DNA of 64,000 nt from a virus (Duplodnaviria > Caudoviricetes), in the IMG/VR virus record IMGVR_UViG_3300038345_000144; one strand, 5' to 3'. Below the pieces are notes generated by a model that saw only the letters and a program-made list of their open reading frames with translations, did no database searches and was not told the origin of the DNA. The position numbers and the translations under genes were made by a program. Shown here one piece after another: positions 18,643 to 50,732 of the stretch (the first letter of the stretch is position 1; each line of letters starts with the position of its first letter).

Positions 18643-18863
18643 CTTTAATTCCTCCTGAATAATTTTCGTAAGGTGTTTTATCTTTAACGACCTCATATTA
18701 CCATAGAAACTTTCAGGCTGTCAAGTGTATTTTCGGCAAAATATTCAAAAAAATGCCAAAATGGTCAGATTTGTCCTATTAAACGGACTAAAATGGGTAA
18801 AAAGGCATAAAAAACTCCCCGTAAAATCAATTACGAGGAATTTTTTTAATAATGTGGATTGCT

Positions 18864-19075
18864 ATTACAGCCCCCATAAATGAGGAAAGTTGAACGAGTT
18901 GTCAATGAACCCTTGTCAGCTTTGAACAACCTCCGATGCGGAGAACAGCCGTTTTACGCCAAGATTTGCTGAACAACCCCCGAAACGGGGAAACTTGTGC
19001 ATATATTACACAAGTTCTTTGTGGACTAAACCGCAGAGTTTGAGTCCTTTAGAACAACCCCCGAAACGGGGAAAA
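18864..19075 (-). CRISPR. Degenerate type I-E-like CRISPR mini-array (4 repeats, 3 spacers)
   Basis: Minus-strand repeats TTTTCCCCGTTTCGGGGGTTGTTCT (19051-19075), GTTTCCCCGTTTCGGGGGTTGTTCA (18970-18994), GTTCTCCGCATCGGAGGTTGTTCA (18923-18946), CTTTCCTCATTTATGGGGGCTGTAAT (18864-18889); each is a hairpin plus 8-nt tail; spacers 56, 23, 33 nt. Confidence 0.7.
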
Positions 19076-19087
19076 TTTCCCTTCCTA

Positions 19088-20161
19088 TTATATACTTGCC
19101 AGATTTACATTCCTGTAAGACATATCATCTGTTACCTCTTTAATGACCTTAATCTCATCTGGTATAGAGATTTTAGCGTCCTCGGAGGACATTTCAATCT
19201 CAAGAATTGCCACATCATTCCAGTTAGGATAAATGTCTATCTCTAAATAACAATCCATATATGACATACAGTAGCGTGTCTTTCTTATCTGGTGCTTTGA
19301 GGTGTCTGCGTTCATCAACAGGGCTAAATACTCGTCCTTTGTCAACATACGCTCAATCTCCATACGCTTGATGTCCGATACCCTACGCTTGATGGTCTTT
19401 GTGTAAACATAGTTACCGTTAAGTCCTCTTTGTCTAACTCTGACCTCATCTTCGGGGTTATCGCTGTTCAAATATGTCTGGATAATATCTACCTTCTGAA
19501 CATTAGGCAGGCTCTCCAGCCACGCAACATCAGGGTACTCAATCAAGAATTTACGCTCAATCTCGTAAGGCTCTGGCTCACCTAAATAAGATGTGATTTC
19601 CGTCATAAGTCGCTTAATCTTCTCATCAAAACCTGTTGAGTTGTCGATAATTCTGAAGTGCGGGTGTCCTGTCCAAGCCTGCATAACCTTTGTATCGTTA
19701 TCCCTTGCCTGTTCAGGAGTTTCCCATCTTGCCTGATTATTTTCTGTGGTATAGAACTCTTCTGCACCCTTCGCCGCAGTTACGAGGTGGAATACTGCAC
19801 CGTAGTTATCACGGAGTTCAACCTCATTTGTGCCAAGAGTATGTAAAACTCTGTTCCACATTTCTTCGTCCATATAAGCCTTGTTATCCAAAACTCCTCT
19901 GTCGCAGATGATAATAGCCTTCTGGTCAAGAGTTTTAGAGGCTTCCTCATAGATACGCTCCTTATCTAACTGGTATTTTGTCAGATAAGTCTGGAATTCC
20001 TTAAAATCTACTGGGGTTAATCCGCTTGAGATAAGTTCGGTGGCAGACTCGGCAATAATAAGTACCTTATAACCAAGTTGTGTCAATTCCTTACTAATCC
20101 TGCTCATAGCGGTTGATTTACCAGCACAAGGACCGCCAGTTATTACGATTTTTTCAACCAT
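19088..20161 (-). CDS. AAA_28 P-loop kinase-like domain fused to CYTH domain
   Basis: GGPCAGKS Walker A, CDRG; EIERKFL CYTH motif. Confidence 0.85.
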   Translation of the reverse strand: MVEKIVITGGPCAGKSTAMSRISKELTQLGYKVLIIAESATELISSGLTPVDFKEFQTYLTKYQLDKERIYEEASKTLDQKAIIICDRGVLDNKAYMDEEMWNRVLHTLGTNEVELRDNYGAVFHLVTAAKGAEEFYTTENNQARWETPEQARDNDTKVMQAWTGHPHFRIIDNSTGFDEKIKRLMTEITSYLGEPEPYEIERKFLIEYPDVAWLESLPNVQKVDIIQTYLNSDNPEDEVRVRQRGLNGNYVYTKTIKRRVSDIKRMEIERMLTKDEYLALLMNADTSKHQIRKTRYCMSYMDCYLEIDIYPNWNDVAILEIEMSSEDAKISIPDEIKVIKEVTDDMSYRNVNLASI

Positions 20162-20441
20162 TTAGTACCTCTTTCTTTTGTGGTTTATGATATTTGATAA
20201 TCAAAATAAACTGGATGATTACTTCCAGCATTACTACGGAACTGAATAGCATTTCATACCAAGTAACTTTGGTCAGTACCCAGTACACCATCCACAACGA
20301 GTTCATAAACAATACCAAAATCTGAGATAACAGTGATATATCCTGACTTGATTTTGTTCTCACCAACTTGACTATCTGGGGCAAGAAGGTGCAAAACTCT
20401 ATGGTGTGTAATGCACAAAAAATTATGTCAGCAACATTCAT
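20154..20441 (-). CDS. PQ-loop (SemiSWEET-like) transporter
   Basis: FLPQIVKLVRTKSSQDIS; three TM helices. Confidence 0.8.
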   Translation of the reverse strand: MNVADIIFCALHTIEFCTFLPQIVKLVRTKSSQDISLLSQILVLFMNSLWMVYWVLTKVTWYEMLFSSVVMLEVIIQFILIIKYHKPQKKEVLNG

Positions 20442-21130: not shown

Positions 21131-22120
21131 TTAAACAGCAACAGGAATACCCTTAATCTTTTCTGCATACTCGTAATTATCAAGGTGGATATTTTCGAGT
21201 GAGAAGTCATAGAAGTCGGTAACTCCATCGTCAATATAGAACTTCGGAGCAGGGAATTTCTGGTTATTTACCACCCTATCAACTGTTTCCATATGTCTGT
21301 CGTAGATGTGTGCGTCAGCGATAACGTGGACAAACTCACCTACTTCAAGTCCCGTAGCCCTTGCAATAAGATGTACGAGAACGGCATACTGGGCAACATT
21401 CCAACCATTTGCAACCAACATATCCTGTGAACGCTGATTGAGAATAGCGTTTAACTTATATCCGTCGGTTTTGTTTCCTGTAACATTAAAGGTCATAGAA
21501 TACGCACACGGATGTAAGTTCATTTCAGACAAATCGTGGAACTGATAGATGTTTGTAAGCACTCTTCTGTTCATCGGAGTAAGAATGAGGTCATAGATAA
21601 CCTTGTTAACCTGGTCCATCCACCACTCACCGTTGATACAGTAAGCAACAGTAACCTTGTTATCCCTTCTGCGACAAATCCTTGAAATATGTCCGTCCTT
21701 ACAATCCTTGTCAACATTCTCGATGAGGTAATTTTCACCAAATGCCTTGAGAAGTTTGACATCGGAAACACCCTTATATCTGTCAAGAACGCCTAACTGG
21801 TAGCCATAAGCCTTACCAATGGAGCCATTCTCATCAGCCCAAGAGTCCCAAATATGAGAGTTGAGGTCATTAACATTATTTGACTTCTTCTGCCAAATCC
21901 ATAATAATTCATCAACTAATGCTTGAAAGTTAATCCAACGCTGTGTCTGCATCGGGAATTCTTCAGCAAGGTTATACCTATTTACGACACCAAATGCCTT
22001 ATAGGTAAAAGCGGGAGTTCCATCTTCCCAATGAGGTCTTACTTCCTCGTTCTCTGTGGTATAGCCTGAATTCTTTATGGTGGCTATTGTCTCATCAAAT
22101 TTGTCGTCTGCTTTGCTCAT
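21131..22120 (-). CDS. thyA: Thymidylate synthase
   Basis: ELLWI, GKAYGYQ, NRR, LHPC, QRSQD, WNVAQY, DAHIYDRH. Confidence 0.95.
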   Translation of the reverse strand: MSKADDKFDETIATIKNSGYTTENEEVRPHWEDGTPAFTYKAFGVVNRYNLAEEFPMQTQRWINFQALVDELLWIWQKKSNNVNDLNSHIWDSWADENGSIGKAYGYQLGVLDRYKGVSDVKLLKAFGENYLIENVDKDCKDGHISRICRRRDNKVTVAYCINGEWWMDQVNKVIYDLILTPMNRRVLTNIYQFHDLSEMNLHPCAYSMTFNVTGNKTDGYKLNAILNQRSQDMLVANGWNVAQYAVLVHLIARATGLEVGEFVHVIADAHIYDRHMETVDRVVNNQKFPAPKFYIDDGVTDFYDFSLENIHLDNYEYAEKIKGIPVAV

Positions 22121-22135
22121 AAAATATATCCTTTC

Positions 22136-23782
22136 TTATTTTAATAAACTCTCTGGCACATAGATAATATCACTCTTAATAGATAGATAAAAGTCATCAC
22201 CATCTATCAAAGTGACGGTATTAAACCCGTGAATATCCGTGTATTTCATATATCCTTTTATTCTCTGTTCAATAAGGTCAAATCTGGTCTTCATATACAA
22301 CTTATTTTTGGTGGAAGAGCCATCACATACGATAAACAAACGGTTGCCGAAATGCTTTCTTCCTTCCTGTGACTGGTTCTTATACAGCCACTCGATTAAC
22401 TTGTCCCTACCATTACGGGTAGTCATATCTGGAGTAAAATTGATATTGTCAGGAATAGTTGTAACCTTCAAATCAAAAGGCTCACCCTTGATGTAAAAAT
22501 CAATTAACTTATGCTTTGAGTTTGCCTCATCTACCGCACCGTACTTAACGAACAGGTCTTCACAAGTAAGTGATACTTGAGCATTAAACCACCTGTGGAG
22601 AGCATAGTTGAGGTCAATCTCATTCTCTTCGCAGGCTTTCTTAACCTCATCTACCGTTTTGGCACTGTAAATAAAACCTGACATTTTATCATTATCATCA
22701 GATTGCTTTTCCCATTGAGCGTCCATCATCTGTAACGCCCTGACTAATTCTTTTTGTAACGGTGTGTCATTAGGGTTTACCTTAATGATGTCAGGAATAT
22801 TCTGCTTTTTCTTGAGGTCTCTATTAGGGAGTTCGCTGTGACGGACAATCTTAATAGACCAGAACTGTTCCTCGGTCATATCGTTGATGTCCTTACAGAA
22901 CTCATATCCTTCATAGTCTAACTCGTAGATAAACTTACCCTTAACATTCTGGTGGAACTTCTGACGAGCCTTATATCCAGCCGTATCTTGGTCGGTAGCC
23001 AAGACAAGCATAGGCAAATCAGCCTTCATAATCTGCTCGTACTGTTTAGCGGAGCCTGTACCGTTTAAGGCAATAGCATAACCGCCCCAAGACCAAATAG
23101 AGAGAGCGTCAATCATACTCTCTACGACAAAGACCTTATCAATCTTTGCACCTGCTTTGCGAGCCTGCTCTAACTCATAAAGTCCATAAACAGGCTTATC
23201 TACGCTGTCAGGGTAGTGGAAGTATTTAGTCTCTGTGCTACGGATAGCCACGAACAGAATATTGCCGTGAATATCTTTTACAGGGAACAATACCTCTTTA
23301 CGCTCTTCATCATAGCAAACCTCAAACAAATCAAGGATTTCCTTCTTGATGTGTCTGGTATTAAGCATATAGTCAGAGTATTTTCTGTACTTATCAAGGA
23401 TTGATGGCTTAATGTATTTAGGCTCTGGCTTCTTTTCCTTCTTTGTTACCAACTTGATATTAGTCGGCTCGAAAATCTCATAGGAAGTAACCTCAAAATT
23501 ATCACGCAACCACTCCACTCCATCAGCGTGAACAACATCGCCAATGACTTGTGGGAGTGAATGAGAGCATTTACAGTTATGACAAAAGAAGAGTCCGTCT
23601 TCTTTTCTGAACTGTGCAGAAGGCTTATTTTCCTGACCGAGTTTGTGGTAAGGGCATTGTACCATTAGGTACTCATTAGCCTCTTTATAGCCCATTGAGA
23701 AGTACGGAGCACTCTCTAATAATAATCTGTCTAAAATCTCATATATAGTAGCATTTACATTGAGATTTTTACCTACCTGCAT
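22136..23782 (-). CDS. dnaG: DnaG-type primase with C-terminal PD-(D/E)XK-like extension
   Basis: CPYH..CHNC Zn finger; TOPRIM VESMIDA, DQDTAG, KDIND; C-terminal E...IDF...FDLK. Confidence 0.85.
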   Translation of the reverse strand: MQVGKNLNVNATIYEILDRLLLESAPYFSMGYKEANEYLMVQCPYHKLGQENKPSAQFRKEDGLFFCHNCKCSHSLPQVIGDVVHADGVEWLRDNFEVTSYEIFEPTNIKLVTKKEKKPEPKYIKPSILDKYRKYSDYMLNTRHIKKEILDLFEVCYDEERKEVLFPVKDIHGNILFVAIRSTETKYFHYPDSVDKPVYGLYELEQARKAGAKIDKVFVVESMIDALSIWSWGGYAIALNGTGSAKQYEQIMKADLPMLVLATDQDTAGYKARQKFHQNVKGKFIYELDYEGYEFCKDINDMTEEQFWSIKIVRHSELPNRDLKKKQNIPDIIKVNPNDTPLQKELVRALQMMDAQWEKQSDDNDKMSGFIYSAKTVDEVKKACEENEIDLNYALHRWFNAQVSLTCEDLFVKYGAVDEANSKHKLIDFYIKGEPFDLKVTTIPDNINFTPDMTTRNGRDKLIEWLYKNQSQEGRKHFGNRLFIVCDGSSTKNKLYMKTRFDLIEQRIKGYMKYTDIHGFNTVTLIDGDDFYLSIKSDIIYVPESLLK

Positions 23783-29154: not shown

Positions 29155-30249
29155 TTATTGAGGGCTGATAACATTCATATTATCGGGCTGGCTAATCTTG
29201 ATGATATACATATCAGGTGAGTCAATAGAATATTTTGCATCGCCTCTTGCAGTAATCTTAACACCACCAATAAGGTCAGCATCTTCGTCATAAATATCAC
29301 CACGACCAGTTACATCAGCCTCATTACGGGGCTTGAGGTAAACACCCTTCTTATTAACTTCAACTTTGGAGTCGTCAGCAATCGTAAGGTCAGACTGGTC
29401 AAGTCCATTCTCCGCACCAAGAATAGCAACTACCAAGTAACTGTTTACACCAAAGATAGACTCAATGTGTGCAGACTCGGTATTAACATAGTCCTGAAGT
29501 GACCTCTGGGCTTCCTCGGAGGAAAATCTTACCTTCTTACGGTCCTTGAGTTTCTCTTCAATCATATGTGCTAATTCAGGGCTTGGGATAACTAATTCGT
29601 GGTTAGGGTCACGGTTAGGATAGAGCAATCCCTTTGCCTTATCATTTGCAATTCTGAACTTATCTCCAAATACGGCAGGAACCTTAACGACAGGTACTCT
29701 AACCATAAACTTAACGGAGAAGTCACTGTTTGTAGCCATAAAGTCGAGAGTATCGCCTTCAAGCAGGTCGCTACTAACCATATAGTCCTCGTAGTTGAGT
29801 GGAGCAAGTCCCTCAAGTCCACAAAGAACTCTTGCATCTCTCAATGCCTGATAAGAACCAATGTTCTTGACATTGTTATACTTTCTACTGCAACAAGTAT
29901 AGTTTACCCAAGTTGCAAAGAAGAGGTCATTTGTAGGTGTACCCTGTAATGTTGGGGCATCGTTACCAGAAATCTCCTTCCAAGCATCGAAGAGTGTAAG
30001 GTGATTGATGATGTTATCTCTTTCAGCCTCTCCGATAGTCTCACGGAATATTGCAGAAACCAAGTCAGGTACAAGGTTAGGGTCACTTAACATTGATGTT
30101 AAGGCTTTTCCTGCATTTTCGGGGTGGTTCTGATAACCAGCCAATGCGTTATCATTGTTCTTCTCGCCAGACTCAAGTTTGGTCAAAGAAACCTCAACGC
30201 TAACAGGTTTTCCATTCATAATAACTGTTGTTTTGATTTTGTCAGCCAT
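29155..30249 (-). CDS. Hypothetical protein, probable paralog of 27130-28137
   Basis: Long ORF with AGGAG RBS; shared motif as above. Confidence 0.65.
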   Translation of the reverse strand: MADKIKTTVIMNGKPVSVEVSLTKLESGEKNNDNALAGYQNHPENAGKALTSMLSDPNLVPDLVSAIFRETIGEAERDNIINHLTLFDAWKEISGNDAPTLQGTPTNDLFFATWVNYTCCSRKYNNVKNIGSYQALRDARVLCGLEGLAPLNYEDYMVSSDLLEGDTLDFMATNSDFSVKFMVRVPVVKVPAVFGDKFRIANDKAKGLLYPNRDPNHELVIPSPELAHMIEEKLKDRKKVRFSSEEAQRSLQDYVNTESAHIESIFGVNSYLVVAILGAENGLDQSDLTIADDSKVEVNKKGVYLKPRNEADVTGRGDIYDEDADLIGGVKITARGDAKYSIDSPDMYIIKISQPDNMNVISPQ

Positions 30250-36124: not shown

Positions 36125-39100
36125 ATGAAAACATCGGACTTAATTAAAAAGCATATTTCAGAAATGGACTCAAAGGACCCTATTCTGTTTTACATTGTCA
36201 AAAAGCCACACAGAGAAAATAGTGAGGACTTTCATTTACGCTTTTACTCTGATGACTTTAGATGTCAGTGTGAAGATGACTTTGTAACTGGAAGTGAGTG
36301 TATGTGTCAGCAGATAGCATATCTCACCGAGAAGTACGCAAAGAGAGGAATTCAGGTAGTCTTTGAATTTAGTGAGCAGATGAAGCCAGATTATATTATA
36401 TCTGACAGTCAGTTTGCTCCTATTTATGATTACGAAATAATGGAAGCAAGGACAGTATGAATTTAGAATTAGTTAGTAACATTTTTTTAACCATATCGGC
36501 TTTTGCTTTTTGTTTCTGGATTGGTTTGCGTGTTTGGAGGATGTCCTAATGTATCGAAAAGAACACATACCACCTCTGCTATCGGCGGCAACGATACTGG
36601 GAAGAATTATCCGAGTATTGTTAGATAAACAGTTAATTGACCGTGAGGATGCCCTGTATATACTTGGGGATAGAGATTATAAGGAGGAAGAGTAAATGAC
36701 TGCTCTTGAGATTTTAGAAAAGATTAAAGCCCAGATTGAGAAAACATATTACAGTCAGGGCGAAGGCTTTGACGATTATTCAGATGGATTTATTAGGGCT
36801 AAAAATGAAGACCTGAAAATCCTTGACTGTTTTATTACAAGAGCCAAGTGGAAGGAAAATAAGAAAAGCAACAATGTCCAGACCGTTTGCGGAAACAATC
36901 CAAAATGGTGTGAGAGTTGCGTATCAAAAGGCAAATGTGCAAGTACAGGACCGCAAAGCGAGCGTGAGTTTATAGAAATACTTGCTCAAAATGTACCTGA
37001 TGATATTACTCCTGTTGATTACAGAGGAAAGCCTTATTATTCAATTCACTATAAGGAAAACGGAAAGGATTTTGTTGGCTTTGGTACTTACAAGCCCGAA
37101 GTATTATCCAGTTATTTGAGAGACTATTTTATGAAAGGAGATGCGAAATGAATACTACAAAATTCTTATTTTATAAGAGGATGATGGACAAACAAATTAT
37201 GCAATTAAGATATGCGTGAGGTTAATGAAGAATGAAATGCCCTAAATGTGGTACAGAAATGGTTTGGGTGGGTGATGTTCAAATATTGATTAAAGATACA
37301 GACAAATATCTTTATAAATTATCCAAGAAAGCATTTCGTAGTAAAGATATTAAATTGGTAGCAGTTAATTGGAATAAGGGAGATTTGTTTTGTCCTAACT
37401 ATTTACAATGTGGAAATCATCCATTGTTGAAAGGCGGTAAGAAATGAGACTTGGTGATTTAGATGCTTTGAAAAAGGAGTTTATAAACGAATTCTATACG
37501 GCACTTGGTCAGGGTGAAGATAGTTTTGATGTTATTGGTACTATGGCAAAAGTTATCGACAATGCCCCGACAGTTGAAGAAAGACTAAAAGGCGAGTGGG
37601 TAGTAGAAAAGAACAAGTTTGGTGATATTCTACATTGTTCTATATGCGGTGCAAGACCTCGCAGAAGTGAGTATGGATATGACTTACACGATAAGTTTTG
37701 TAATGAGTGTGGTGCGGATATGAGAAAGGCTGAAGAATGAGTGTTGAAAACGGTAAAGTCTGCTGTAATTGCCGACATTGTAAAAGAATAGCCAAAGAGC
37801 ACGGAAAACATATTGAGTGTCGTTGTGATATAGATAATGCTTATCTGACTTATACGACGGTTTTGAGTTATTGGTGTCGGCATTGGGCAAAAGAAAGCGA
37901 GAAAGGTGGTACGGAAAATGACAGATAAAGAAAAAGCAATAGTTATGGCTTATACGGGAGTTGCTATGCTTACTGGAGACAAGTTCTCTATATTTCATAA
38001 GTACATCGAGGACCTCTTGAACCGACCTGTGTTTACTCACGAATTGGCAAGCGAAGAGGTTTGGAACGAGATTAAGGAAAAATCAAAGGATGACTTTTTG
38101 AAGTTGTGTAGAGATTAAACTATTGCTGTGTAAATATACAGAAAGGCGGTGCGGAAAATGACGGATAAAAAGACCGTTTATTGGCTTAAAGAAATCAAAA
38201 AGGAACTGAAAACAAGAAGGTTCCCTGAATACAAAGACGAAGTTTTCGAGGCACTTGATACGGCTATTGCCAAATTCAATGAACCTGAAATCACATACGC
38301 TTGGCAGGATAGTATTCCTAATGTTGATAACGATTATGGTAAATATTCTCACACTTGCCCTAATTGTCATACGGCACAGCGTAACAAGAGTAAGTTCTGT
38401 CCCGACTGTGGAGCCAAAATGAAATTTGATGAGGTAACAAAAAATGAATGACGAAAAGGCATTAGAACAGTTAGAAGAATTTTTGGTGATTGATGATTGG
38501 TCAGCCGTATATATGCCTTACTTACAAGACGCTATTGAATATGTTATCAATCGCATAAATGCAGACAGGTGGGTTCCAGTATCAGAAAGATTGCCAGACA
38601 AAGAGGGCAAATGCTTGGTAACAACCGACTTCGGAGATGTATGTGAGGATAGTTTTGTGGACGGTATGTTTGTTTTATATCTTGGTAATGTTATTGCTTG
38701 GAAATATAAACCTGAACCATACAAGGAGAATAAAGAATGATAGATAACATTGACGAGGCAATTAAACATTGTCTTGAAAAGGCAGAAGAAAAGAAGAAAG
38801 AGGCAGACTACCTTGATGCACCTTACGGAATGGACACAAGCGAAAGAACAAGTTGCCTTGACTGTGCAAACGACCATTTACAGTTAGCCCAATGGTTAAC
38901 TGAATTAAAAAACTATCAAGACCCTAACAGGAAGTGTTCTAATTGCAAATATAACAGCCAGTGTGGTCCTGATTATGAGCGTTATGCACAAACAACAGAG
39001 GGAACTCTTTATAAACACAAGGTCAGCGGAGTTCTAAAACTTGTTATAAAACACCCAAAATGCAGAAATTGTAGTGCAACCGTTTTAAGACATTTTGAGC

Positions 39101-43732: not shown

Positions 43733-46135
43733 TTATGGGACAATAGTAGTGAGCCAACGGAGACCATCTTCCGTAAGAACAACGCCGTCACGCAACAGGT
43801 CTTGCCTATCGTAGAAGTTAATATCCTCGATAAGTTTATGCTCGAACTTTTTAAGCGGAGCCATAATAGCGTCATCTTTATATTCAGATATAGTAACAAC
43901 ACACTTCTGCATAACTTCCTTTATCTTACTAAAGTTGTGTTCAATGTCTGCGATGTTTGCCATATCGACAATAGCGATAGATACCGTAGGATAGGTCTCA
44001 AACCTTGTTACCGCCAGACTGCCTCCGAACTTATCATAGTCCTTTTCAAACATATTATCGTCCGTAGGCTTCTTAATCAGACAGTTACCTGCCATTAAGT
44101 CCTTATGCAAGTTCTTGGTCAAATCAAGGCTTGAATAAACGGTATCAATCAGTCCTCGAATATCTTTGACATTGTTAATTGTCTTTTTATTCTTCAAAAC
44201 CGCTACGGTACGGGCAAGGATTTCCCTGCTGTAAATAGAAACACCGAAACGGTCTCTTGGAATAATAACAGTGATTGGTGTTGTGATGTGTTCTTTCTCT
44301 CTGACTGTATCTTTGTCGGGGTGTCGCCAAACTCTACCAAATCTCTGAATAAGGAGGTCAATAGGGGCAATAGCCGTGAACATTCTATCCAAGTCAATAT
44401 CCAACGACTGCTCGATAATTGAGGTAGCCGTAAGTGTGAGCCTCGGAGGTCTTTCTGTTCTGTCCTTACCCAGAATATCAATGATGTCTTTGGTCTTTTT
44501 CTCTTTATGCTCTACGGTATCACGACCATTGAACATCATTACATTAGGCAAGCCAATCTTCTTTGCCTCGTCATAAAGTCTCCAAGTCTTATCAACCGTA
44601 CTCTCGATATAAGCCGTACAACCGTTATAGTTAGTTGCCATAAACTTATTCCAAGTCTCTTCGTAGTCATCTGTTTCGATAACATCAATATTGAAGGTAC
44701 GCTCATCACAGGAAACCTCGGTAAATGCCATACCATTAGCCACACTGTATGTGGTAATAAGAGGATATGCGTCATTCTTTACAAACTGGTCTCTGGTGCA
44801 ACCACTGGCTTCAAGTAACTCTCTCTTGGTTACTGAAGGGAGTGTAGCGGAGAGCAGGATAACAGGAATATCGAGGAACCTGCACCACTGTATAAGCATC
44901 TTAATCTCGGCAATCATATATGAGTCATAGGCGTGAACCTCGTCAATTACGATTACCTTATCAGACAAACCAATAAGTCCAATGCAGGAATATTTCTGGT
45001 AAAGCACGGTCTTGAGGATTTGGTCAACCGTACCTACTGCATAAGGATATAACAAGTGATGTTTTGTCTTATGAGTCCACAAATATTGAGGTATCTTTGT
45101 CATATCGGCATCTGTCCAGATTTCACTACTGTCCAATTCTGGAATATTCATTCCCAGACCGATTTTCTGTGCTACCTTATTCATACGGAGGGACATACCC
45201 TTTGCCGTAGCCATTGTAGGAGTAGCAAGGTAAATACCAGATTTGTTAGCACCAATCTGCTTGGCGGCTACCAGAGAGGCTTCCGTCTTACCACCACCGC
45301 AAGGGTACTCTACAATCATAAGTGAAGGATTAGACTTTGAGGCTTCAATAATCTTCTCCTGCAACTCATTCTTTTCAAAGTCAAAAGCCATATCCCAAGT
45401 AACATTCTTGAGACGGTCTTTCATAGGTACATATCCCAACGCATTATTCTGTATGAAGTTTTTAGCCCATACTCTACGGTCCAGCGAGTTAGTAGGCATT
45501 TTTTGCCAGTTCTCGCCAGATGCAATCCAGTCGGCTGTTACCATAATTGACAGGATAGAATACCAAACTCCGTTATGGAATTTATCAAGGTCAGCAAACC
45601 TGTCGCTGAAACTCCACTCGTTCTCAATTTCCTTAATTAAGGCAAATCCTACCTCTCTCCATTCGGGAGATACCTTATATGAGAAACCGCCCTCTGATTT
45701 AGACTGGTGGTGATATGCCAGTATGTCGGCAAATCGTTCAGCCTCAAATGAGAAGTCCTTTTCCTCAAAATAATCTTTAAGTATTTCTCTTGAGAACCTT
45801 TCGTGTCTAAAGCCGTCATAGTCTCCGTCTTTTGCAATACCACGCTTCTTGAAGTCTTCCCAAAGTTTATCAAGTTCAGGGTTCTCTTGGCATTTAGGGT
45901 ACATCTTACCCATAAAGAACGGATGAGCCTTACCTAAATCGTGGCAGGCACACAAGAACGAAATAGAACTAACTACCTCTGGGAAAGGTAATTTAACCTT
46001 ATCAGCGATAGAATGAGCCATATTAAACGCCCTACCATATTTCATTAGGGTCTCTGCAATACAGCCAACATCAAGCAAGTGATTTAGCAACTTCAAATCT
46101 GGCTTTGCATATAATTCGTCTAATTCTACTATCAT
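43733..46135 (-). CDS. cas3: CRISPR-associated HD nuclease-helicase Cas3
   Basis: HLLDV, HDLGKA, RHE, YHH, ADWIAS; GGGKTEA, DEVH, LSATLP, EQSLDID, QRFGRVWRH; ATG 46135 preferred over GTG 46177. Confidence 0.95.
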   Translation of the reverse strand: MIVELDELYAKPDLKLLNHLLDVGCIAETLMKYGRAFNMAHSIADKVKLPFPEVVSSISFLCACHDLGKAHPFFMGKMYPKCQENPELDKLWEDFKKRGIAKDGDYDGFRHERFSREILKDYFEEKDFSFEAERFADILAYHHQSKSEGGFSYKVSPEWREVGFALIKEIENEWSFSDRFADLDKFHNGVWYSILSIMVTADWIASGENWQKMPTNSLDRRVWAKNFIQNNALGYVPMKDRLKNVTWDMAFDFEKNELQEKIIEASKSNPSLMIVEYPCGGGKTEASLVAAKQIGANKSGIYLATPTMATAKGMSLRMNKVAQKIGLGMNIPELDSSEIWTDADMTKIPQYLWTHKTKHHLLYPYAVGTVDQILKTVLYQKYSCIGLIGLSDKVIVIDEVHAYDSYMIAEIKMLIQWCRFLDIPVILLSATLPSVTKRELLEASGCTRDQFVKNDAYPLITTYSVANGMAFTEVSCDERTFNIDVIETDDYEETWNKFMATNYNGCTAYIESTVDKTWRLYDEAKKIGLPNVMMFNGRDTVEHKEKKTKDIIDILGKDRTERPPRLTLTATSIIEQSLDIDLDRMFTAIAPIDLLIQRFGRVWRHPDKDTVREKEHITTPITVIIPRDRFGVSIYSREILARTVAVLKNKKTINNVKDIRGLIDTVYSSLDLTKNLHKDLMAGNCLIKKPTDDNMFEKDYDKFGGSLAVTRFETYPTVSIAIVDMANIADIEHNFSKIKEVMQKCVVTISEYKDDAIMAPLKKFEHKLIEDINFYDRQDLLRDGVVLTEDGLRWLTTIVP

Positions 46136-46136
46136 T

Positions 46137-46190
46137 TGTTTATACCCCGTAATACAAGGAAAGAAAGCGTCCCCCACCGAAGCGGGGAGT
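46137..46190 (-). repeat. Two abutting CRISPR-repeat-like hairpins in the cas6e-cas3 intergenic region
   Basis: CCCCGC-TTCG-GTGGGG-GACGCTTT then CTTT-CCTTGT-ATT-ACGGGG-TATAAACA, 1 nt before the cas3 ATG. Confidence 0.6.
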
Positions 46191-46195
46191 TAATT

Positions 46196-46777
46196 TTACT
46201 TAACTAACATCAGACCTAATCCGTAGTTCTTCATTCTGCCGACACCGTTAGTAATAAACTCTTCTGCCTTTTTAGCGTCTACTACTCTGATTTCGCCCTT
46301 GAATGATGAAGTCGGAATTCTCTTATTCTGGTTGTTGTCCAAAATAATGTCTGACTGTTTGTACTCGATAGCACCAAGCAACTCAATACCATTCTTTTCA
46401 AAAATGTTCTTCAGCCACTCGTAGCGTCCTGCATAATCCTTGATGTAGTAACGCTTGTTATCGACTACTTTATATGGGAATGTTTGTAAATCAAACTGTG
46501 TAAGTTTGCTGTAATCTCTCTTTGAAATATCAAATGACTTTACTGGGATAAAGCCCACAGCATCGACATTCTCTATATTAAAAGGAGACTGGGACTGGAT
46601 ATACATATAAATCTCGTCCCCATTTGAGATAATCTTATAAAGCAACTTATCTGATGCTCTTGATTTATCCTGTCGTCCAGTAAGCCACTGATGTACGCTA
46701 TTTGTACTCTGGACATTAAGGAGTTTTGGAGCCGTCAAGATAGATTGCCTCGTCATCTTAAGCACAGTCAAATACAT
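46196..46777 (-). CDS. cas6e: Type I-E Cas6e (Cse3)
   Basis: MYLT, N-terminal His (VHQ), C-terminal GVGRMKNYGLGLM glycine loop. Confidence 0.9.
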   Translation of the reverse strand: MYLTVLKMTRQSILTAPKLLNVQSTNSVHQWLTGRQDKSRASDKLLYKIISNGDEIYMYIQSQSPFNIENVDAVGFIPVKSFDISKRDYSKLTQFDLQTFPYKVVDNKRYYIKDYAGRYEWLKNIFEKNGIELLGAIEYKQSDIILDNNQNKRIPTSSFKGEIRVVDAKKAEEFITNGVGRMKNYGLGLMLVK

Positions 46778-47312
46778 TTTCCAAGTCCTCCTCTTTTATA
46801 AGTTCAAATTTAGTAACCAACGGCTTATTAGGTACGCAACTTCTCTTACCAAAGAATAAAGCATAAACAGGGTTTCTCAAAGCCTCATAGATTTCCTTGA
46901 GTATCTTCTCGTCGCCTCCGACATATACTTCAAATTCTGCGTTCTGAAGGTACTGTATCTTCTTAATGATAGCCTCTTCGCTACCCTTACTACCGTCCAT
47001 TGTCTTGAAGGTATTTCTCTTGTAATGCTTGTTCATATAATACTGCTGACTCTTGAGAGGGCTAACAGTCTGATAGTCCTCAAGCAACATAATGTCGTCC
47101 TTGAGTGACTTATACTTAACAACCAAATTATCCTTTAAGTAATTCTGTTGTTCCTTATTGCCTCTCTCAAAGCCCATAGCAGAACCAATGAGTCCAAACA
47201 CGGCTCTCTTTGTAGGGTGTGTTTCCGTTACATAAGAACTTCGTAATGTTGTGGACTGATTAGAAGAAAAATACTGCAATACACCAGACAGATGTATTTT
47301 TAGATATTTCAT
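46758..47312 (-). CDS. cas5e: Type I-E Cas5
   Basis: HPTKRAVFGLIGSAMG, YLQNAEF, NPVYALFFGKRSCVP. Confidence 0.9.
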   Translation of the reverse strand: MKYLKIHLSGVLQYFSSNQSTTLRSSYVTETHPTKRAVFGLIGSAMGFERGNKEQQNYLKDNLVVKYKSLKDDIMLLEDYQTVSPLKSQQYYMNKHYKRNTFKTMDGSKGSEEAIIKKIQYLQNAEFEVYVGGDEKILKEIYEALRNPVYALFFGKRSCVPNKPLVTKFELIKEEDLENVFDCA

Positions 47313-47326
47313 ACATTAGCCCTTTC

Positions 47327-48625
47327 TTAATCTGCAAGTAACGGTTCAATTGCCTTCTTGAGAGTCTTGGACAGTTCCTTAAAGTTCTTAATTCTTGTAG
47401 CGTCCTCAAACTCGCTTGCGAGGTCTGCGTAGTCGGAACCTACCATAATATACTGCTTAATATCACCTGAACGGAATGTGGTGTCGTTAGCAAACTGGGC
47501 AAGTCTCTTGATAGCCTGCTCTGAAATGCTCTCTCCACCTCTGTTTCTGATAACTGTACTCCAGTCAGGCTGAATGTTAGCACCGTCATCAATTACCTCG
47601 ATAAGTACAAAAGCAGGTGCGATGTGTGAAGAAGAACGATGCTGTGTTGCTTCAGGGGTCATTTCAATCATAGCCTGAATGAACTGTGCAGTAGTGTCAA
47701 TAACTGTCTGCTTTGTGTCCTTGTTTTCCTTACCACACTTCTTTGAACCTACGAAAGTATCAAGATTTCTCTCGAACTCCTTGAGGTTGATGTTAGCGTA
47801 TGAATACATAAGGTTAGATGAAAGTGAAAGACCTGTATTGAATGTCTCACCACTTCTCTTCTGGCTCTCTACTTCATTGAAGTCATTGTAAGCACCGAAG
47901 AACGGGTCATCACTGGTAGCACCTGAACGACCTGTGAACTTAACAGTAAAGATGTCGCTTTCAGGCATATACTCGTCTACTGAATAAGCCTGACCCATTT
48001 CCAAAGCACCGTCAACTGTACCAAGTACGCCGTCAGTAGCCATTGTACCGAAAAGTGCTTTTGCGATTGAAAGTGTTACATCATCAAGGGCAACGGTCTT
48101 TGCGACATTTGCCATCTTCTTTGTATCGGAGAAATCCTTTGGACCATTCTCCTTGAGATATGCGATAAATCCATTGATGAGGGCAGAAATCTCGGAGGCG
48201 TTAGTATTAACAATGATGTTCTTACTCTTTTCTTCCTTCTTCTCGGAGGTATCTTCCTCTTCATCTTCAGCCTTCTTCTTCTTTTTAGGCTTCTCGTCAC
48301 CTGTTGCCTTTAATCTGTCCCAACAGTTAGAACCAATGACTTCCTTACTACAAATTGCCTTACCGACGATTTCCTTTTCTTCCTCGGTAATTGTACCATC
48401 AGCAACCTTAACATCAAGACAATTACTAATCAACTTCTCGATATAACCTGTACGGATTTCCTCACAAGCAAGGCTCTCTCTGATTGCTCTCTTCTGGCAC
48501 TGTGATGAGAAACGAACACGGTTAGTACCGCCAATGATAATCTGCTTGGCTTCTCCGTCCTCGCCTCTGTTAAAAGTACCAGGATTGTACTGTTTAAGTA
48601 AATGAATTGCTACAAACTTTCCCAT
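47327..48625 (-). CDS. cas7e: Type I-E Cas7 (Cse4)
   Basis: NRGEDGEAK...GGTNRVRFSSQCQKRAIR, ALFGTM, YSYANIN. Confidence 0.9.
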   Translation of the reverse strand: MGKFVAIHLLKQYNPGTFNRGEDGEAKQIIIGGTNRVRFSSQCQKRAIRESLACEEIRTGYIEKLISNCLDVKVADGTITEEEKEIVGKAICSKEVIGSNCWDRLKATGDEKPKKKKKAEDEEEDTSEKKEEKSKNIIVNTNASEISALINGFIAYLKENGPKDFSDTKKMANVAKTVALDDVTLSIAKALFGTMATDGVLGTVDGALEMGQAYSVDEYMPESDIFTVKFTGRSGATSDDPFFGAYNDFNEVESQKRSGETFNTGLSLSSNLMYSYANINLKEFERNLDTFVGSKKCGKENKDTKQTVIDTTAQFIQAMIEMTPEATQHRSSSHIAPAFVLIEVIDDGANIQPDWSTVIRNRGGESISEQAIKRLAQFANDTTFRSGDIKQYIMVGSDYADLASEFEDATRIKNFKELSKTLKKAIEPLLAD

Positions 48626-48652
48626 AATAATTTAATTTCCTTTCGTGTGTGT

Positions 48653-49159
48653 TTAATCTTCATCGTTGTCTACACTACAACAAATGGTACTTGCCCATTT
48701 CATTCGTGTATTATTACTATTCCAGTTCTTCAGGTCTTTAAGAAGACTGTAATAATCAATTCTTTGATTACCCGCATAAGGTAATGCTCTTCTTGCGAGA
48801 CTTGCAAAGGTCTTATTGAAGTAAGCCGTATTACTATACCTCATTGATAAGAACTTTGTAATAGTCTTCTTACCAGAGTCAGAAGAGTTGATATAGAGAA
48901 GTCGAAGGATTTTTTCAAACGGAACTCTCTTATCACTGCTCTTGTTGCCCTGCTTCTCTGCATTATAGCATAAACCCGCAACTAAAAACTCGAATTCCTG
49001 CTCCCACCTCGGAGTTTCTGGTTCCATAAGTTTTGAGTAGGAGATTAGAGCCTCAATCTGACAAGTATCTAATGACTGCCCGAATGACCTACGAATAGGA
49101 TAATATTCGGATGAGTTATTGATATGTCCACACATACGGGTTACAAAATCATCAGCCAT
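48653..49159 (-). CDS. cse2: Type I-E Cas11 (Cse2)
   Basis: Small helical protein between cas8e and cas7; IDYYSLLKDLKNW; start MADDF with GGGAGG RBS. Confidence 0.75.
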   Translation of the reverse strand: MADDFVTRMCGHINNSSEYYPIRRSFGQSLDTCQIEALISYSKLMEPETPRWEQEFEFLVAGLCYNAEKQGNKSSDKRVPFEKILRLLYINSSDSGKKTITKFLSMRYSNTAYFNKTFASLARRALPYAGNQRIDYYSLLKDLKNWNSNNTRMKWASTICCSVDNDED

Positions 49160-50732
49160 TGGCAAATTCCTCCCATAATGAATAACATTTTTCTTTGGTC
49201 TTCTTGGAAAGACCTGCAAACTTGCGTTTAGCATTGACAAAATCAACAGGCGACTGAATGATGCTGGTGTTTACACAACCGTTAATCAAATCATTCGCTG
49301 TCTTAAACATAAAGTCGTTGAAGTGAGTGAATACTTCTTTAGGTTCTACATCAGCACACTCTTTCGTAAAGGTGTTAAAAAAATAATTTTCAACTGACTG
49401 TGAGAACTTGGAACTAATCTCTGCCTTCCTTGAGGTAATCTTTGCTTCGTTAATGAAGTAAGAGAGATTAGCGTTATAGTTAGTTAAAGTCCACTGGAAG
49501 ATTTCTGCCATCTTGTTATGAGCCTCGTCCTCGAAAAAATCAAACAAGTCTTGCGAAATCTCATCGAACCTACCACAAGAGTAGAACAGGTCGGTTGTGT
49601 GGAACTCAACATTTCTGTAATAGATAAAACAATCGGCATCGTGGTTATACTGGTAAGTGTCTGACAATACATTACACAAGCGTCTGTCTGTTTTCTTGGT
49701 AATCTCTGTCAGCAACTCACTAACCTTGATGTCGTTTTTATAATTCCACTTCTGACACACGCCCTTCTTATCCAACTTCTTAATGCCGTAAGGGTATATC
49801 TCAAAATATACATTTTCAAGGGCTTTACGAGCGTCCTTGTCAATAACCTGTCTATGAGTCTTGCCTGCGAATACTCCGCATACGGTCTCTCCGTCCCTTC
49901 TCAAAATATAGACAGGGAAAGAGGGGAAGAACGAACAAATCAAGTGGTTCTTTCCTAAAAATTCTCCGTAAGCATCAGGAATATCGAAGATACTATCGAA
50001 CTCCCATACTGGCTTATCATACATTGTATTAGGATTGTATTCATCAGGCTTGGAACTATCTCTCAAAGGAAGTGAATTATATATAATAGTCTCCTTGAGG
50101 TTCTTACCCTGTAACAATACAAAAAGTCTCATTCTATTCAAGAGTGAGTTAATAGGGTACGGACCAGGTGCTATCGTGATACCCAGATGGTTCATAAACA
50201 ACAGAGCATACACAGTCTCGGCATCATCCATCTTGTAACTTTCAATAAGTTCCTCTTCTGAACCTGCGGTTCCACTCTCAAAAATCTTGTTAGCAGAACC
50301 AGGTGCGAGAGGGTTGATGTTAAGTATATAGGTATGTTTCTTATCCTTTTCTTCAGTCTTTTCTGCTGTTTCCTTGAGTGTAATATCCTGCATAAAGGGA
50401 AATTGCTCGTCATAGAGATTGAACTTATGCTCCCACTTATCAAGGTATTTAAGGATTGTTTTAAGGTTCCAACCCTTCTTCATCAACTTTTGACTGAAAT
50501 ATTTTCCACCAGCCTCGAAATCATTTTCAGGCTTGAAATAGGCTGAAAGTAAGATTACTGATAAGAACTGCATAACGGGTACATCATAAATATACGCCTT
50601 TTTACCGTGAAAGGTGGGCGTATATAAACACTTGATTTTATCTGCGTCAGTAAATGCTTGTCTAACAGAAATCTGCTCGTTATGTCCGTCTAAATAAGTA
50701 ACAAATAGCCATTTGTCGTTAATGACATTCAT
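49152..50732 (-). CDS. cas8e: Type I-E Cas8e (Cse1)
   Basis: MNVINDKWL, YLDKWEHKFNLYDEQFPFMQ, GKNLKETIIYN, PVWE. Confidence 0.85.
   Translation of the reverse strand: MNVINDKWLFVTYLDGHNEQISVRQAFTDADKIKCLYTPTFHGKKAYIYDVPVMQFLSVILLSAYFKPENDFEAGGKYFSQKLMKKGWNLKTILKYLDKWEHKFNLYDEQFPFMQDITLKETAEKTEEKDKKHTYILNINPLAPGSANKIFESGTAGSEEELIESYKMDDAETVYALLFMNHLGITIAPGPYPINSLLNRMRLFVLLQGKNLKETIIYNSLPLRDSSKPDEYNPNTMYDKPVWEFDSIFDIPDAYGEFLGKNHLICSFFPSFPVYILRRDGETVCGVFAGKTHRQVIDKDARKALENVYFEIYPYGIKKLDKKGVCQKWNYKNDIKVSELLTEITKKTDRRLCNVLSDTYQYNHDADCFIYYRNVEFHTTDLFYSCGRFDEISQDLFDFFEDEAHNKMAEIFQWTLTNYNANLSYFINEAKITSRKAEISSKFSQSVENYFFNTFTKECADVEPKEVFTHFNDFMFKTANDLINGCVNTSIIQSPVDFVNAKRKFAGLSKKTKEKCYSLWEEFANG

What the first reader, a model, noticed from the sequence alone, without database searches (positions are those of the whole stretch)
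18864..19075. Remote, non-canonical CRISPR mini-array for an adaptation-less phage type I-E system
Seen: four 24-26 nt repeats, each a G/C hairpin followed by an 8-nt tail (GTTGTTCW in three), which is the I-E crRNA architecture. Stem changes are compensatory (CCCCG/CGGGG to CTCCG/CGGAG), indicating selection on structure. The array has no leader, starts 12 nt after the AAA-CYTH stop, is followed by a terminator-like hairpin and lies about 25 kb from the cas operon. Spacers are 56, 23 and 33 nt. Inference: a fixed, multifunctional guide cassette in which the 33-nt spacer directs Cas3 cleavage and the 23-nt spacer directs binding-only gene silencing, as short I-E guides bind without cutting.
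Basis: partly seen in the sequence, partly recalled or inferred. Interest (0 to 1): 0.88.

Follow-up and report, generated by a model that had tools for sequence, protein, structure and literature searches.

The report
Phage CRISPR mini-array with unlike repeats
This short stretch is very probably a real guide-RNA array for the giant phage's own CRISPR system, which has no spacer-acquisition genes. It is one of many small scattered arrays whose repeats keep a hairpin and an 8-base tail but differ in sequence, so standard CRISPR finders miss them.

Summary
On the minus strand, four hairpin-plus-tail units sit 13 nt after the AAA_28/CYTH stop codon and end at a strong terminator, 24.7 kb from a complete type I-E interference operon with no cas1/cas2 nearby.

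The array reading is well supported. Related huge phages carry the same unit type (variable 5-7 bp hairpin, GTTNTTC-type 8-nt tail, 33-nt spacer, 57-61 nt period). They carry it right beside cas6e/cas3 and also at remote sites. One complete 467-kb relative has at least seven such mini-arrays, no Cas1 and no canonical array.

- **"Spacer 1" (57 nt)** is native DNA. Three sibling strains lack repeat 1 and have about 111 nt there, opening a 48-codon ORF that ends inside "spacer 1".
- **The cassette is not fixed.** Spacer 3 varies between strains, while the repeats and the 23-nt spacer are conserved.
- **"Binding-only" for the 23-nt guide is untested here.** E. coli data show guides over 20 nt still interfere.

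I found no targets and could get no RNA data. This scan has flagged the same kind of array on other parts of this genome and in other phages. I found no paper describing it.

The parts
19051..19074 (-). Unit R1: 5-6 bp G/C hairpin (loop TTT) plus tail GTTGTTCT. It is an exact 23-nt copy of R2 and is absent from sibling strains.
   Evidence: absence in L015, L016 and L019:
18994..19050 (-). 'Spacer 1', 57 nt. In sibling strains this is the last 14 codons, the stop and the trailing hairpin (19014-18994) of a 48-codon ORF. It is native DNA, not an acquired spacer.
18970..18993 (-). Unit R2: hairpin plus tail GTTGTTCA. It is the first unit of the array in sibling strains.
18947..18969 (-). Spacer 2, 23 nt, in a 47-nt unit. 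It is invariant in four strains.
   Evidence: other 47-48 nt units:
18923..18946 (-). Unit R3: hairpin with a compensatory C>T / G>A change, loop CAT, tail GTTGTTCA.
18889..18922 (-). Spacer 3, 33-34 nt, in a canonical 59-nt unit. 6 of 34 sites vary among four strains.
18864..18888 (-). Unit R4, the terminal repeat: hairpin kept, tail degenerate (GCTGTAAT), like the last unit of every related array.
18809..18846 (-). Intrinsic terminator that closes the array transcript. Its stem resembles a repeat stem of the neighbouring array.
19088..20161 (-). AAA_28 + CYTH gene. The array appears to ride on its transcript, since no terminator-like site beyond R1's own hairpin lies between the stop codon and R1; the nearest promoter-like match lies inside this gene (19197-19170), about 100 nt upstream of R1.
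46196..46777 (-). cas6e, the presumed processing nuclease for the hairpins.
43733..50732 (-). Type I-E interference operon: cse1, cse2, cas7, cas5, cas6e, cas3. No cas1/cas2 beside it.

Best explanation

**Proposed mechanism**
- The array is transcribed on the minus strand as the 3' tail of the semiSWEET / AAA_28-CYTH operon and stops at the terminator at 18846-18809.
- The phage Cas6e should bind each G/C hairpin and cut at its 3' base. Each guide then starts with the 8-nt handle GUUGUUCW and ends in the next hairpin.
- Cascade (Cse1, Cse2, Cas7, Cas5, Cas6e) and Cas3 would then act on matching DNA.

**Expected RNAs**
- A canonical 59-nt crRNA with a 33-34 nt guide.
- A 47-nt crRNA with a 23-nt guide, 12 nt (two Cas7 steps) shorter than normal.
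- An 81-nt RNA, found in this strain only. Its 57-nt 'guide' is native phage DNA, captured when a copy of R2 replaced about 111 nt.

**Family context**
The array is one of many scattered mini-arrays in this phage family. Without Cas1 to copy repeats, the repeats have drifted apart in sequence. Selection has kept only what the proteins need: the hairpin and the handle.

**Shown:** the anatomy, the family-wide conservation and the selection pattern.
**Inferred:** transcription, Cas6e cutting, loading into Cascade and interference.
For: **1. Cognate cas genes.** A full I-E interference set lies at 43733-50732.

**2. The same unit type sits beside cas genes in relatives.**
- Between cas6e and cas3 in L001/L008.
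- Directly after cas3 in L002 and L007.
- These units have an 8-nt handle, a 33-nt spacer, a 16-20 nt hairpin part and a 57-61 nt period.

**3. Structural selection.**
- All 33 units from six arrays have a hairpin of at least 5 bp directly against the handle.
- There are 19 distinct basal stems.
- A unit's own arms are fully paired in 100% of cases, against 22.5% for arms taken from different units.

**4. A pattern that fits the crRNA model.**
- Terminal units keep the hairpin but lose the handle.
- Some first units keep the handle but lack the hairpin.

**5. Remote, operon-embedded arrays are the norm in this family.**
- The complete relative G001 has arrays at about 18.3, 20.3, 22.1, 35.9, 37.3, 245.9 and 433 kb.
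- G001 has no Cas1 and no canonical array.
- The window's own phage has an 8-unit array about 2 kb before the window start.

**6. Purifying selection at this locus.** Among four strains, 2 of 154 sites vary outside spacer 3. The rate at third codon positions of the neighbouring gene is 6.7% (p = 0.0017).

**7. The spacers look foreign.**
- Spacer GC exceeds genome GC: G001 p = 2e-4, L007 p < 2e-4, this phage p = 0.047.
- G001's spacers show no match of 26/33 or better in its own genome.
- One L007 spacer hits the same conserved phage gene in three relatives at 24-25 of 33; only 1 of 81 shuffled spacers reached 24.
- Two G001 arrays carry spacers that are 25/33 alike.

**8. Both odd guide lengths are tolerated by studied I-E Cascades.** Spacers over 20 nt still interfere (PMC5159557). 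Spacers up to 57 nt assemble and form R-loops (PMC6859484).
Against:
- I found no protospacer for any of the three spacers in GenBank phages, plasmids, IMG/VR, JGI metagenomes or GTDB genomes. Target and PAM are therefore unknown.
- Two of three intervals (81 and 47 nt) are off the family period.
- 'Spacer 1' is native DNA with internal hairpins, so it may not be a working guide.
- Spacer 3 changes at or above the neutral rate: p = 0.024 against third codon positions, but not significant against the 10.8% of the neighbouring intergenic DNA. That could mean a lack of constraint rather than target tracking.
- The hairpin plus U-rich tail also looks like a weak terminator.
- An 85% relative has no array at this site, so the locus is dispensable.
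Confidence: 0.75

Rival explanations
1. It is a partly decayed relic. The array was once functional, but at this locus only the hairpins still matter, for example as Cas6e-bound 3' ends that stabilise or separate the operon's mRNA. The guides no longer direct interference.
For: - Two of three units are off-period.
- 'Spacer 1' is an ORF remnant.
- Spacer 3 varies at about the neutral rate or faster.
- The 85% relative lacks the array altogether.
- A spacer-less pair of repeat-like hairpins in the cas6e-cas3 gap suggests that arrays do decay in this genome.
Against: - The 23-nt spacer and all handles are invariant in four strains, while neutral sites vary at 7-11%.
- The R3-R4 unit is fully canonical at 59 nt.
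- Short units of 47-48 nt recur in two other arrays, including one in a distant relative. That argues for a tolerated length class rather than random damage.
Confidence: 0.12
2. It makes crRNA-like regulatory or decoy RNAs: either CreR/CreA-type crlRNAs, or Racr-type RNA anti-CRISPRs. Such RNAs would repress a gene through partial complementarity, or soak up Cas6e/Cascade of a host type I-E system.
For: - Degenerate repeats, a short 23-nt guide and mini-array size resemble crlRNA mini-arrays and phage Racrs (PMC10651486; bioRxiv 10.1101/2023.03.03.530964 and 10.1101/2024.10.29.618823).
- The 23-nt spacer is invariant across strains.
Against: - The phage encodes its own complete Cascade and Cas3.
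- In relatives the same units flank regular 33-nt spacers beside those cas genes.
- No partial target appeared. The best match of spacer 2 in the window is 16 of 23, and the single 11-nt seed match is at chance level.
- The locus is 25 kb from the cas promoter region.
Confidence: 0.08
3. It has nothing to do with CRISPR. The units are stacked weak intrinsic terminators or mRNA-stability hairpins at the end of an operon.
For: - The consensus scan calls R1 terminator-like.
- The handle is U-rich.
- In relative G001 a terminal unit doubles as a terminator.
Against: - G at position 1 and C at position 7 of the tail are conserved (31 and 26 of 33 units). A terminator does not need them.
- Relatives show a 57-61 nt period with unique 33-nt inserts.
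- The units lie beside cas6e/cas3 in relatives.
- No such units occur at other operon ends in the window.
Confidence: 0.03

Closest known systems
Canonical type I-E CRISPR arrays and crRNAs (E. coli K-12, Thermus thermophilus, Streptococcus thermophilus Cascade/Cas6e)
   Same: - The same cas gene set is present.
- The guide layout is the same: 8-nt 5' handle, spacer of about 33 nt, 3' hairpin.
- The last repeat is degenerate, as in ordinary arrays.
   Different: - Repeats are 23-26 nt rather than 28-29 nt.
- Stems are 5-7 bp and nearly every one differs in sequence.
- There is no cas1/cas2 and no leader.
- Arrays are tiny (1-7 spacers), numerous, and scattered inside operons far from cas.
- This locus also has off-size units of 81 and 47 nt.
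CRISPR-Cas systems of huge (jumbo) phages that lack adaptation modules and have compact arrays (reviewed in PMC11656645)
   Same: It is a huge-phage-encoded system with an interference module only and very short arrays. It is probably used against competing elements.
   Different: The review text I read does not mention sequence-divergent, structure-conserved repeats, or the dispersal of many mini-arrays into operon 3' ends. My literature searches found no description of these features either.
Viral mini-arrays, solitary repeat units and RNA anti-CRISPRs (Racr; PMC10651486)
   Same: These are also short repeat-like hairpin elements in phage genomes, away from any cas locus.
   Different: Racrs mimic the host's repeats and carry no guide. 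Here the units bracket 33-nt guides, and they match units next to the phage's own cas6e/cas3 in relatives.
crRNA-like regulatory mini-arrays (CreA/CreR, crlRNAs; bioRxiv 10.1101/2023.03.03.530964)
   Same: Both have degenerate repeats, one or two 'spacers', and sometimes short guides.
   Different: Those mini-arrays sit beside cas or toxin genes and pair partially with a nearby promoter. No such partial target was found here.

Membership tests
Type I-E CRISPR array (crRNA genes) | Cognate type I-E cas genes (cse1, cse2, cas7, cas5, cas6e, cas3) in the same genome | tested here: met
   Pfam hits over each family's cut-off for all six, at 43733-50732 on the minus strand.
Type I-E CRISPR array (crRNA genes) | Near-identical direct repeats of about 28-29 nt | tested here: not met
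   Units are 23-26 nt. Only R1 and R2 are identical. R3 and R4 match the reference copy at 69% and 62% over 26 nt.
Type I-E CRISPR array (crRNA genes) | Repeat folds into a stem-loop directly followed by the 8-nt sequence that becomes the 5' handle | tested here: met
   All four hairpins form in the minimum-free-energy fold. All 33 family units have a stem against a GTTNTTC-type tail. The cleavage itself was not tested.
Type I-E CRISPR array (crRNA genes) | Regular spacing with unique spacers of about 32-33 nt | tested here: inconclusive
   One unit here is canonical (59 nt) and two are off (81 and 47 nt). Relatives' arrays are regular at 57-61 nt.
Type I-E CRISPR array (crRNA genes) | Adaptation module (cas1, cas2) and an AT-rich leader with promoter | tested here: not met
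   No cas1/cas2 lies beside the operon. The complete relative has no Cas1. The array begins 13 nt after a stop codon.
Type I-E CRISPR array (crRNA genes) | Spacers match foreign protospacers flanked by a PAM | tested here: inconclusive
   No hit for this locus's spacers. There is indirect family evidence only.
Type I-E CRISPR array (crRNA genes) | Transcript processed by Cas6e into mature crRNAs | not testable with these tools
RNA anti-CRISPR (Racr) / solitary repeat units | Repeat mimic without a guide, acting on a host Cas system that the phage does not itself encode | tested here: not met
   The phage encodes its own I-E system, and the units bracket spacers.
crRNA-like regulators (CreA/CreR, crlRNA) | Partial, seed-first complementarity to a promoter of a cas or toxin gene, usually adjacent | tested here: not met
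   Spacer 2 matches at best 16 of 23 in the window. One 11-nt seed match is at chance level. The locus is 25 kb from cas.
Intrinsic terminator | G/C hairpin followed by a U tract, with no other sequence constraint | tested here: inconclusive
   R1 is flagged as terminator-like. But G1 and C7 of the tail are conserved in 31 and 26 of 33 units.

The most novel reading that the evidence does not exclude
In this strain a copy of an existing repeat (R1 = R2) was dropped in upstream of the array. That turned 57 nt of the phage's own DNA into a new guide without Cas1.

Sibling strains still carry that sequence as the end of a 48-codon ORF. There it is preceded by TAT instead of the handle. The event would therefore arm this strain against its closest relatives while protecting its own copy.

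More broadly, these Cas1-less phages might make and reshuffle guides by repeat insertion and recombination. Differing repeats would then guard the arrays against spacer loss.
Probability: 0.1. Interest if true: 0.85.

Novelty: new variant of a known kind. Interest (0 to 1): 0.66.

Why it matters
**Detection.** Huge phages with interference-only CRISPR systems are known. Arrays like these are invisible to repeat-identity-based CRISPR finders, so such phages may be wrongly scored as having few or no guides.

**What the proteins need.** The family is a natural mutational scan of what a type I-E Cas6e and Cascade require from a repeat: a 5-7 bp stem of almost any sequence, plus a GUUNUUC-type handle.

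**How an array evolves without Cas1.** Repeats drift apart, guides vary between strains, and whole units are gained or lost.

**Practical use.** It suggests compact, recombination-proof multiplex guide arrays for type I-E tools.

**This locus in particular.**
- It adds a strain-level polymorphism: a repeat copy that converts native DNA into a guide-like unit.
- It adds a recurrent class of guides 12 nt shorter than normal.

Tried and rejected
- **Rfam and tRNA scans of the window:** nothing found.
- **The window's record and whole genome:** not held, and absent from GenBank phages and from IMG/VR.
- **Spacer targets:**
  - Spacers 1 and 3 against GenBank phages gave only chance-level hits, E >= 0.4.
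  - Spacer 3 had no hit in IMG/VR or JGI metagenomes.
  - Spacer 2 against GTDB genomes gave two hits, in a cyanobacterial and an alphaproteobacterial MAG (21 and 22 of 23). About one hit is expected by chance, so I rejected them as targets.
  - Spacer 2 had no hit in IMG/VR.
  - The whole array had no hit against plasmids.
  - The neighbouring 8-unit array gave one chance-level hit against phages.
  - Two G001 spacers in IMG/VR, and one of them in JGI metagenomes, hit only the array itself or a near-identical copy of it.
- **Self-targeting:** none at 26/33 or better in the complete relative.
- **A 15-nt exact match** between 'spacer 1' and the antisense strand of gene 29155-30249 looked like a target clue. 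I then found the spacer to be an ORF remnant, so this stays unexplained.
- **Pfam/PHROG on the 48-codon sibling ORF and on gene 29155-30249:** no family.
- **A covariance model of the units:** not built, because MAFFT would not place the loop gaps. I used a hairpin-plus-tail scan instead.

Full report
**What is at the site**

Genes in this part of the window run on the minus strand. After the stop codon of an AAA_28 + CYTH gene (19088-20161) come 13 nt and then four units:
- R1 (19074-19051) and R2 (18993-18970) share an identical 23-mer. It is a 5-6 bp G/C hairpin with a TTT loop, followed by GTTGTTC. Shuffles expect no such match in the window.
- R3 (18946-18923) keeps the pairing through a two-sided change and has another loop.
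- R4 (18888-18864) keeps a hairpin with one G-U pair but has a degenerate tail.

A terminator with a 16-bp stem follows at 18846-18809. After it come a good sigma-70-type promoter and a DUF932 gene. All four hairpins form in the minimum-free-energy fold of the transcript (z = -5.4). No other short-range repeat family exists in the 64 kb.

**The cas genes**

cse1, cse2, cas7, cas5, cas6e and cas3 lie at 43733-50732 on the minus strand, each over its Pfam cut-off. Their neighbours are a cell-wall hydrolase and an intein-bearing radical-SAM gene, not cas1/cas2. The window holds no canonical array.

**What relatives show**

The Cas6e has about 48 relatives at 46-99% identity. The contigs I inspected look like huge phages of 350-490 kb. 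In every relative whose DNA covered the flanks of cas6e and cas3, the same kind of unit sits beside the cas genes:
- between cas6e and cas3 in L001/L008;
- directly after cas3 in L002 and L007.

Cut in register, these units read as an 8-nt tail (GTTNTTC-type), 33 nt of unique sequence, and a T-flanked hairpin, with a period of 57-61 nt. That is the type I-E crRNA layout.

Across 33 units from six arrays:
- every unit has a stem of at least 5 bp directly against the tail;
- there are 19 different basal stems;
- a unit's own arms always pair, while arms from different units pair fully in only 22.5% of combinations;
- G at tail position 1 and C at position 7 are kept in 31 and 26 of 33 units.

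Terminal units keep the hairpin but lose the tail. Some first units keep the tail but lack a hairpin. This is what is expected if each guide needs a handle on its 5' side and a hairpin on its 3' side.

**Remote arrays are the rule**

I fetched the complete 467-kb relative G001. It has mini-arrays at about 18.3, 20.3, 22.1, 35.9, 37.3, 245.9 (beside cas) and 433 kb. Most start right after a stop codon. It has no Cas1 and no canonical array.

L002 has a second array 2.6 kb upstream of its cas operon. The window's own phage has an 8-unit array with its own promoter about 2 kb before the window's first base. Earlier unchecked notes of this scan list further arrays elsewhere in this genome. They also describe the same phenomenon in other jumbo phages.

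**What is unusual at this locus**

Tail-to-tail intervals are 81, 47 and 59 nt. Only the last is canonical.

Three sibling strains (L015, L016, L019; neighbouring protein 97-98% identical) carry R2, spacer 2, R3, spacer 3 and R4, but not R1. In its place they have about 111 nt that open a 48-codon ORF. The last 14 codons, the stop and the trailing hairpin of that ORF are the window's 'spacer 1'. A fourth contig has the same longer gap. The two in-ORF differences between siblings are synonymous. So the long form is probably ancestral, and R1 is probably a recent copy of R2 that replaced the ORF's front. The 57-nt 'spacer' is thus native DNA. An 85% relative has no array at this site at all.

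The 47-nt unit (23-nt spacer) is not unique. The neighbouring array has one of 47 nt. G001 has one of 48 nt. All are about 12 nt, or two Cas7 steps, short of the norm.

**Selection among the four strains**

| Region | Variable sites | Comparison |
|---|---|---|
| Spacer 3 | 6 of 34 | Fisher p = 5e-4 against the rest of the array |
| Rest of the array | 2 of 154 | p = 0.0017 against the third-codon rate |
| Third codon positions of the neighbouring gene | 6.7% | neutral yardstick |
| Intergenic DNA after the terminator | 10.8% | neutral yardstick |

The repeats, spacer 2 and the ORF remnant are therefore under purifying selection. Spacer 3 changes at or above the neutral rate (p = 0.024 against 6.7%; not significant against 10.8%). 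This could be target tracking or a lack of constraint. The cassette is not 'fixed'.

**Targets**

I found none for this locus in GenBank phages, plasmids, IMG/VR, JGI metagenomes or GTDB genomes. Family-level hints point to foreign, probably sister-phage, DNA:
- Spacer GC exceeds genome GC.
- G001's spacers show no match of 26/33 or better in its own genome.
- One L007 spacer hits the same conserved gene in three relatives at 24-25 of 33.
- Two G001 arrays hold spacers that are 25/33 alike.

**The 'binding-only' idea**

In E. coli type I-E, spacers over 20 nt still give interference (PMC5159557). I-E Cascade also accepts spacers up to 57 nt (PMC6859484). Length alone does not make the 23-nt guide a silencer, and I found no partial target.

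**Verdict**

This is a real crRNA-type mini-array of a Cas1-less phage type I-E system, and a member of a family-wide set of scattered arrays with unlike repeats. Processing and interference are inferred, because RNA data were unavailable.

My literature searches found jumbo-phage CRISPR systems without adaptation modules, viral mini-arrays, Racrs and crlRNAs. They found no description of this repeat behaviour. I class it as a new variant of a known kind.

Noticed in passing
window 46136-46195 (minus strand): The 60-nt gap between the cas6e stop and the likely cas3 ATG (46135) holds two repeat-like hairpins 25 nt apart with no spacer between them. Relatives L001/L008 carry a full array at this position, so this looks like a vestigial array. 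The ORF listing GTG start at 46177 is probably too far upstream.
   Followed up: partly
L012:14228-14640 (same contig as the window, about 2 kb before its first base): An eight-unit array with its own promoter lies between gyrA and a DEAD-box helicase gene. One unit is 47 nt (21-nt spacer). Two adjacent repeats share the same stem-loop.
   Followed up: yes
window 29816-29830 (+) versus 19027-19013 (-): 'Spacer 1' and the antisense strand of gene 29155-30249 (364 aa, no Pfam or PHROG family) share an exact 15-mer. It lies 23 nt from the site that an L007 spacer matches at 24 of 33. About 0.01-0.02 such 15-mers are expected by chance. Unexplained.
   Followed up: partly
L015:3596-3742 (also L016, L019): Sibling strains have a 48-codon ORF between the AAA_28/CYTH gene and the array. 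It matches no Pfam family. The window keeps only its last 14 codons.
   Followed up: partly
L008:2794-5505 and L001:10949-13660: In the G001-type relatives, Cas3 is 903 aa and carries a precomputed Cas2 (PF09707) hit, yet the complete genome has no Cas1. The window's Cas3 (about 800 aa) showed no Cas2 hit.
   Followed up: no
window 18809-18846 (minus strand): The terminator's stem (CCTCGT/ACGGGG core) matches the stems of two repeats in the neighbouring array. It is followed by a G plus T-run 56 nt after R4's tail. It may descend from a repeat unit. In G001 (about 22.1 kb) a terminal repeat doubles as a terminator.
   Followed up: partly
window 50855-52768 (minus strand): The radical-SAM gene just upstream of cse1 is interrupted by an intein with a LAGLIDADG endonuclease domain.
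   Followed up: no
window 19088-20441 (minus strand): A semiSWEET/PQ-loop gene overlaps the AAA_28 (NadR-kinase-like) + CYTH gene, suggesting a nucleotide or NAD salvage module. The closest named cellular homologue (64% identity) is from a Ruminococcaceae/Oscillospiraceae MAG, which hints at the host lineage.
   Followed up: no
G001 about 22,070-22,145 and 37,335-37,400 (L023): A single-spacer unit directly after a stop codon carries a spacer 25/33 identical to the first spacer of the 37-kb array. On the reverse strand both translate to similar peptides. They may be two guides against variants of one gene.
   Followed up: partly
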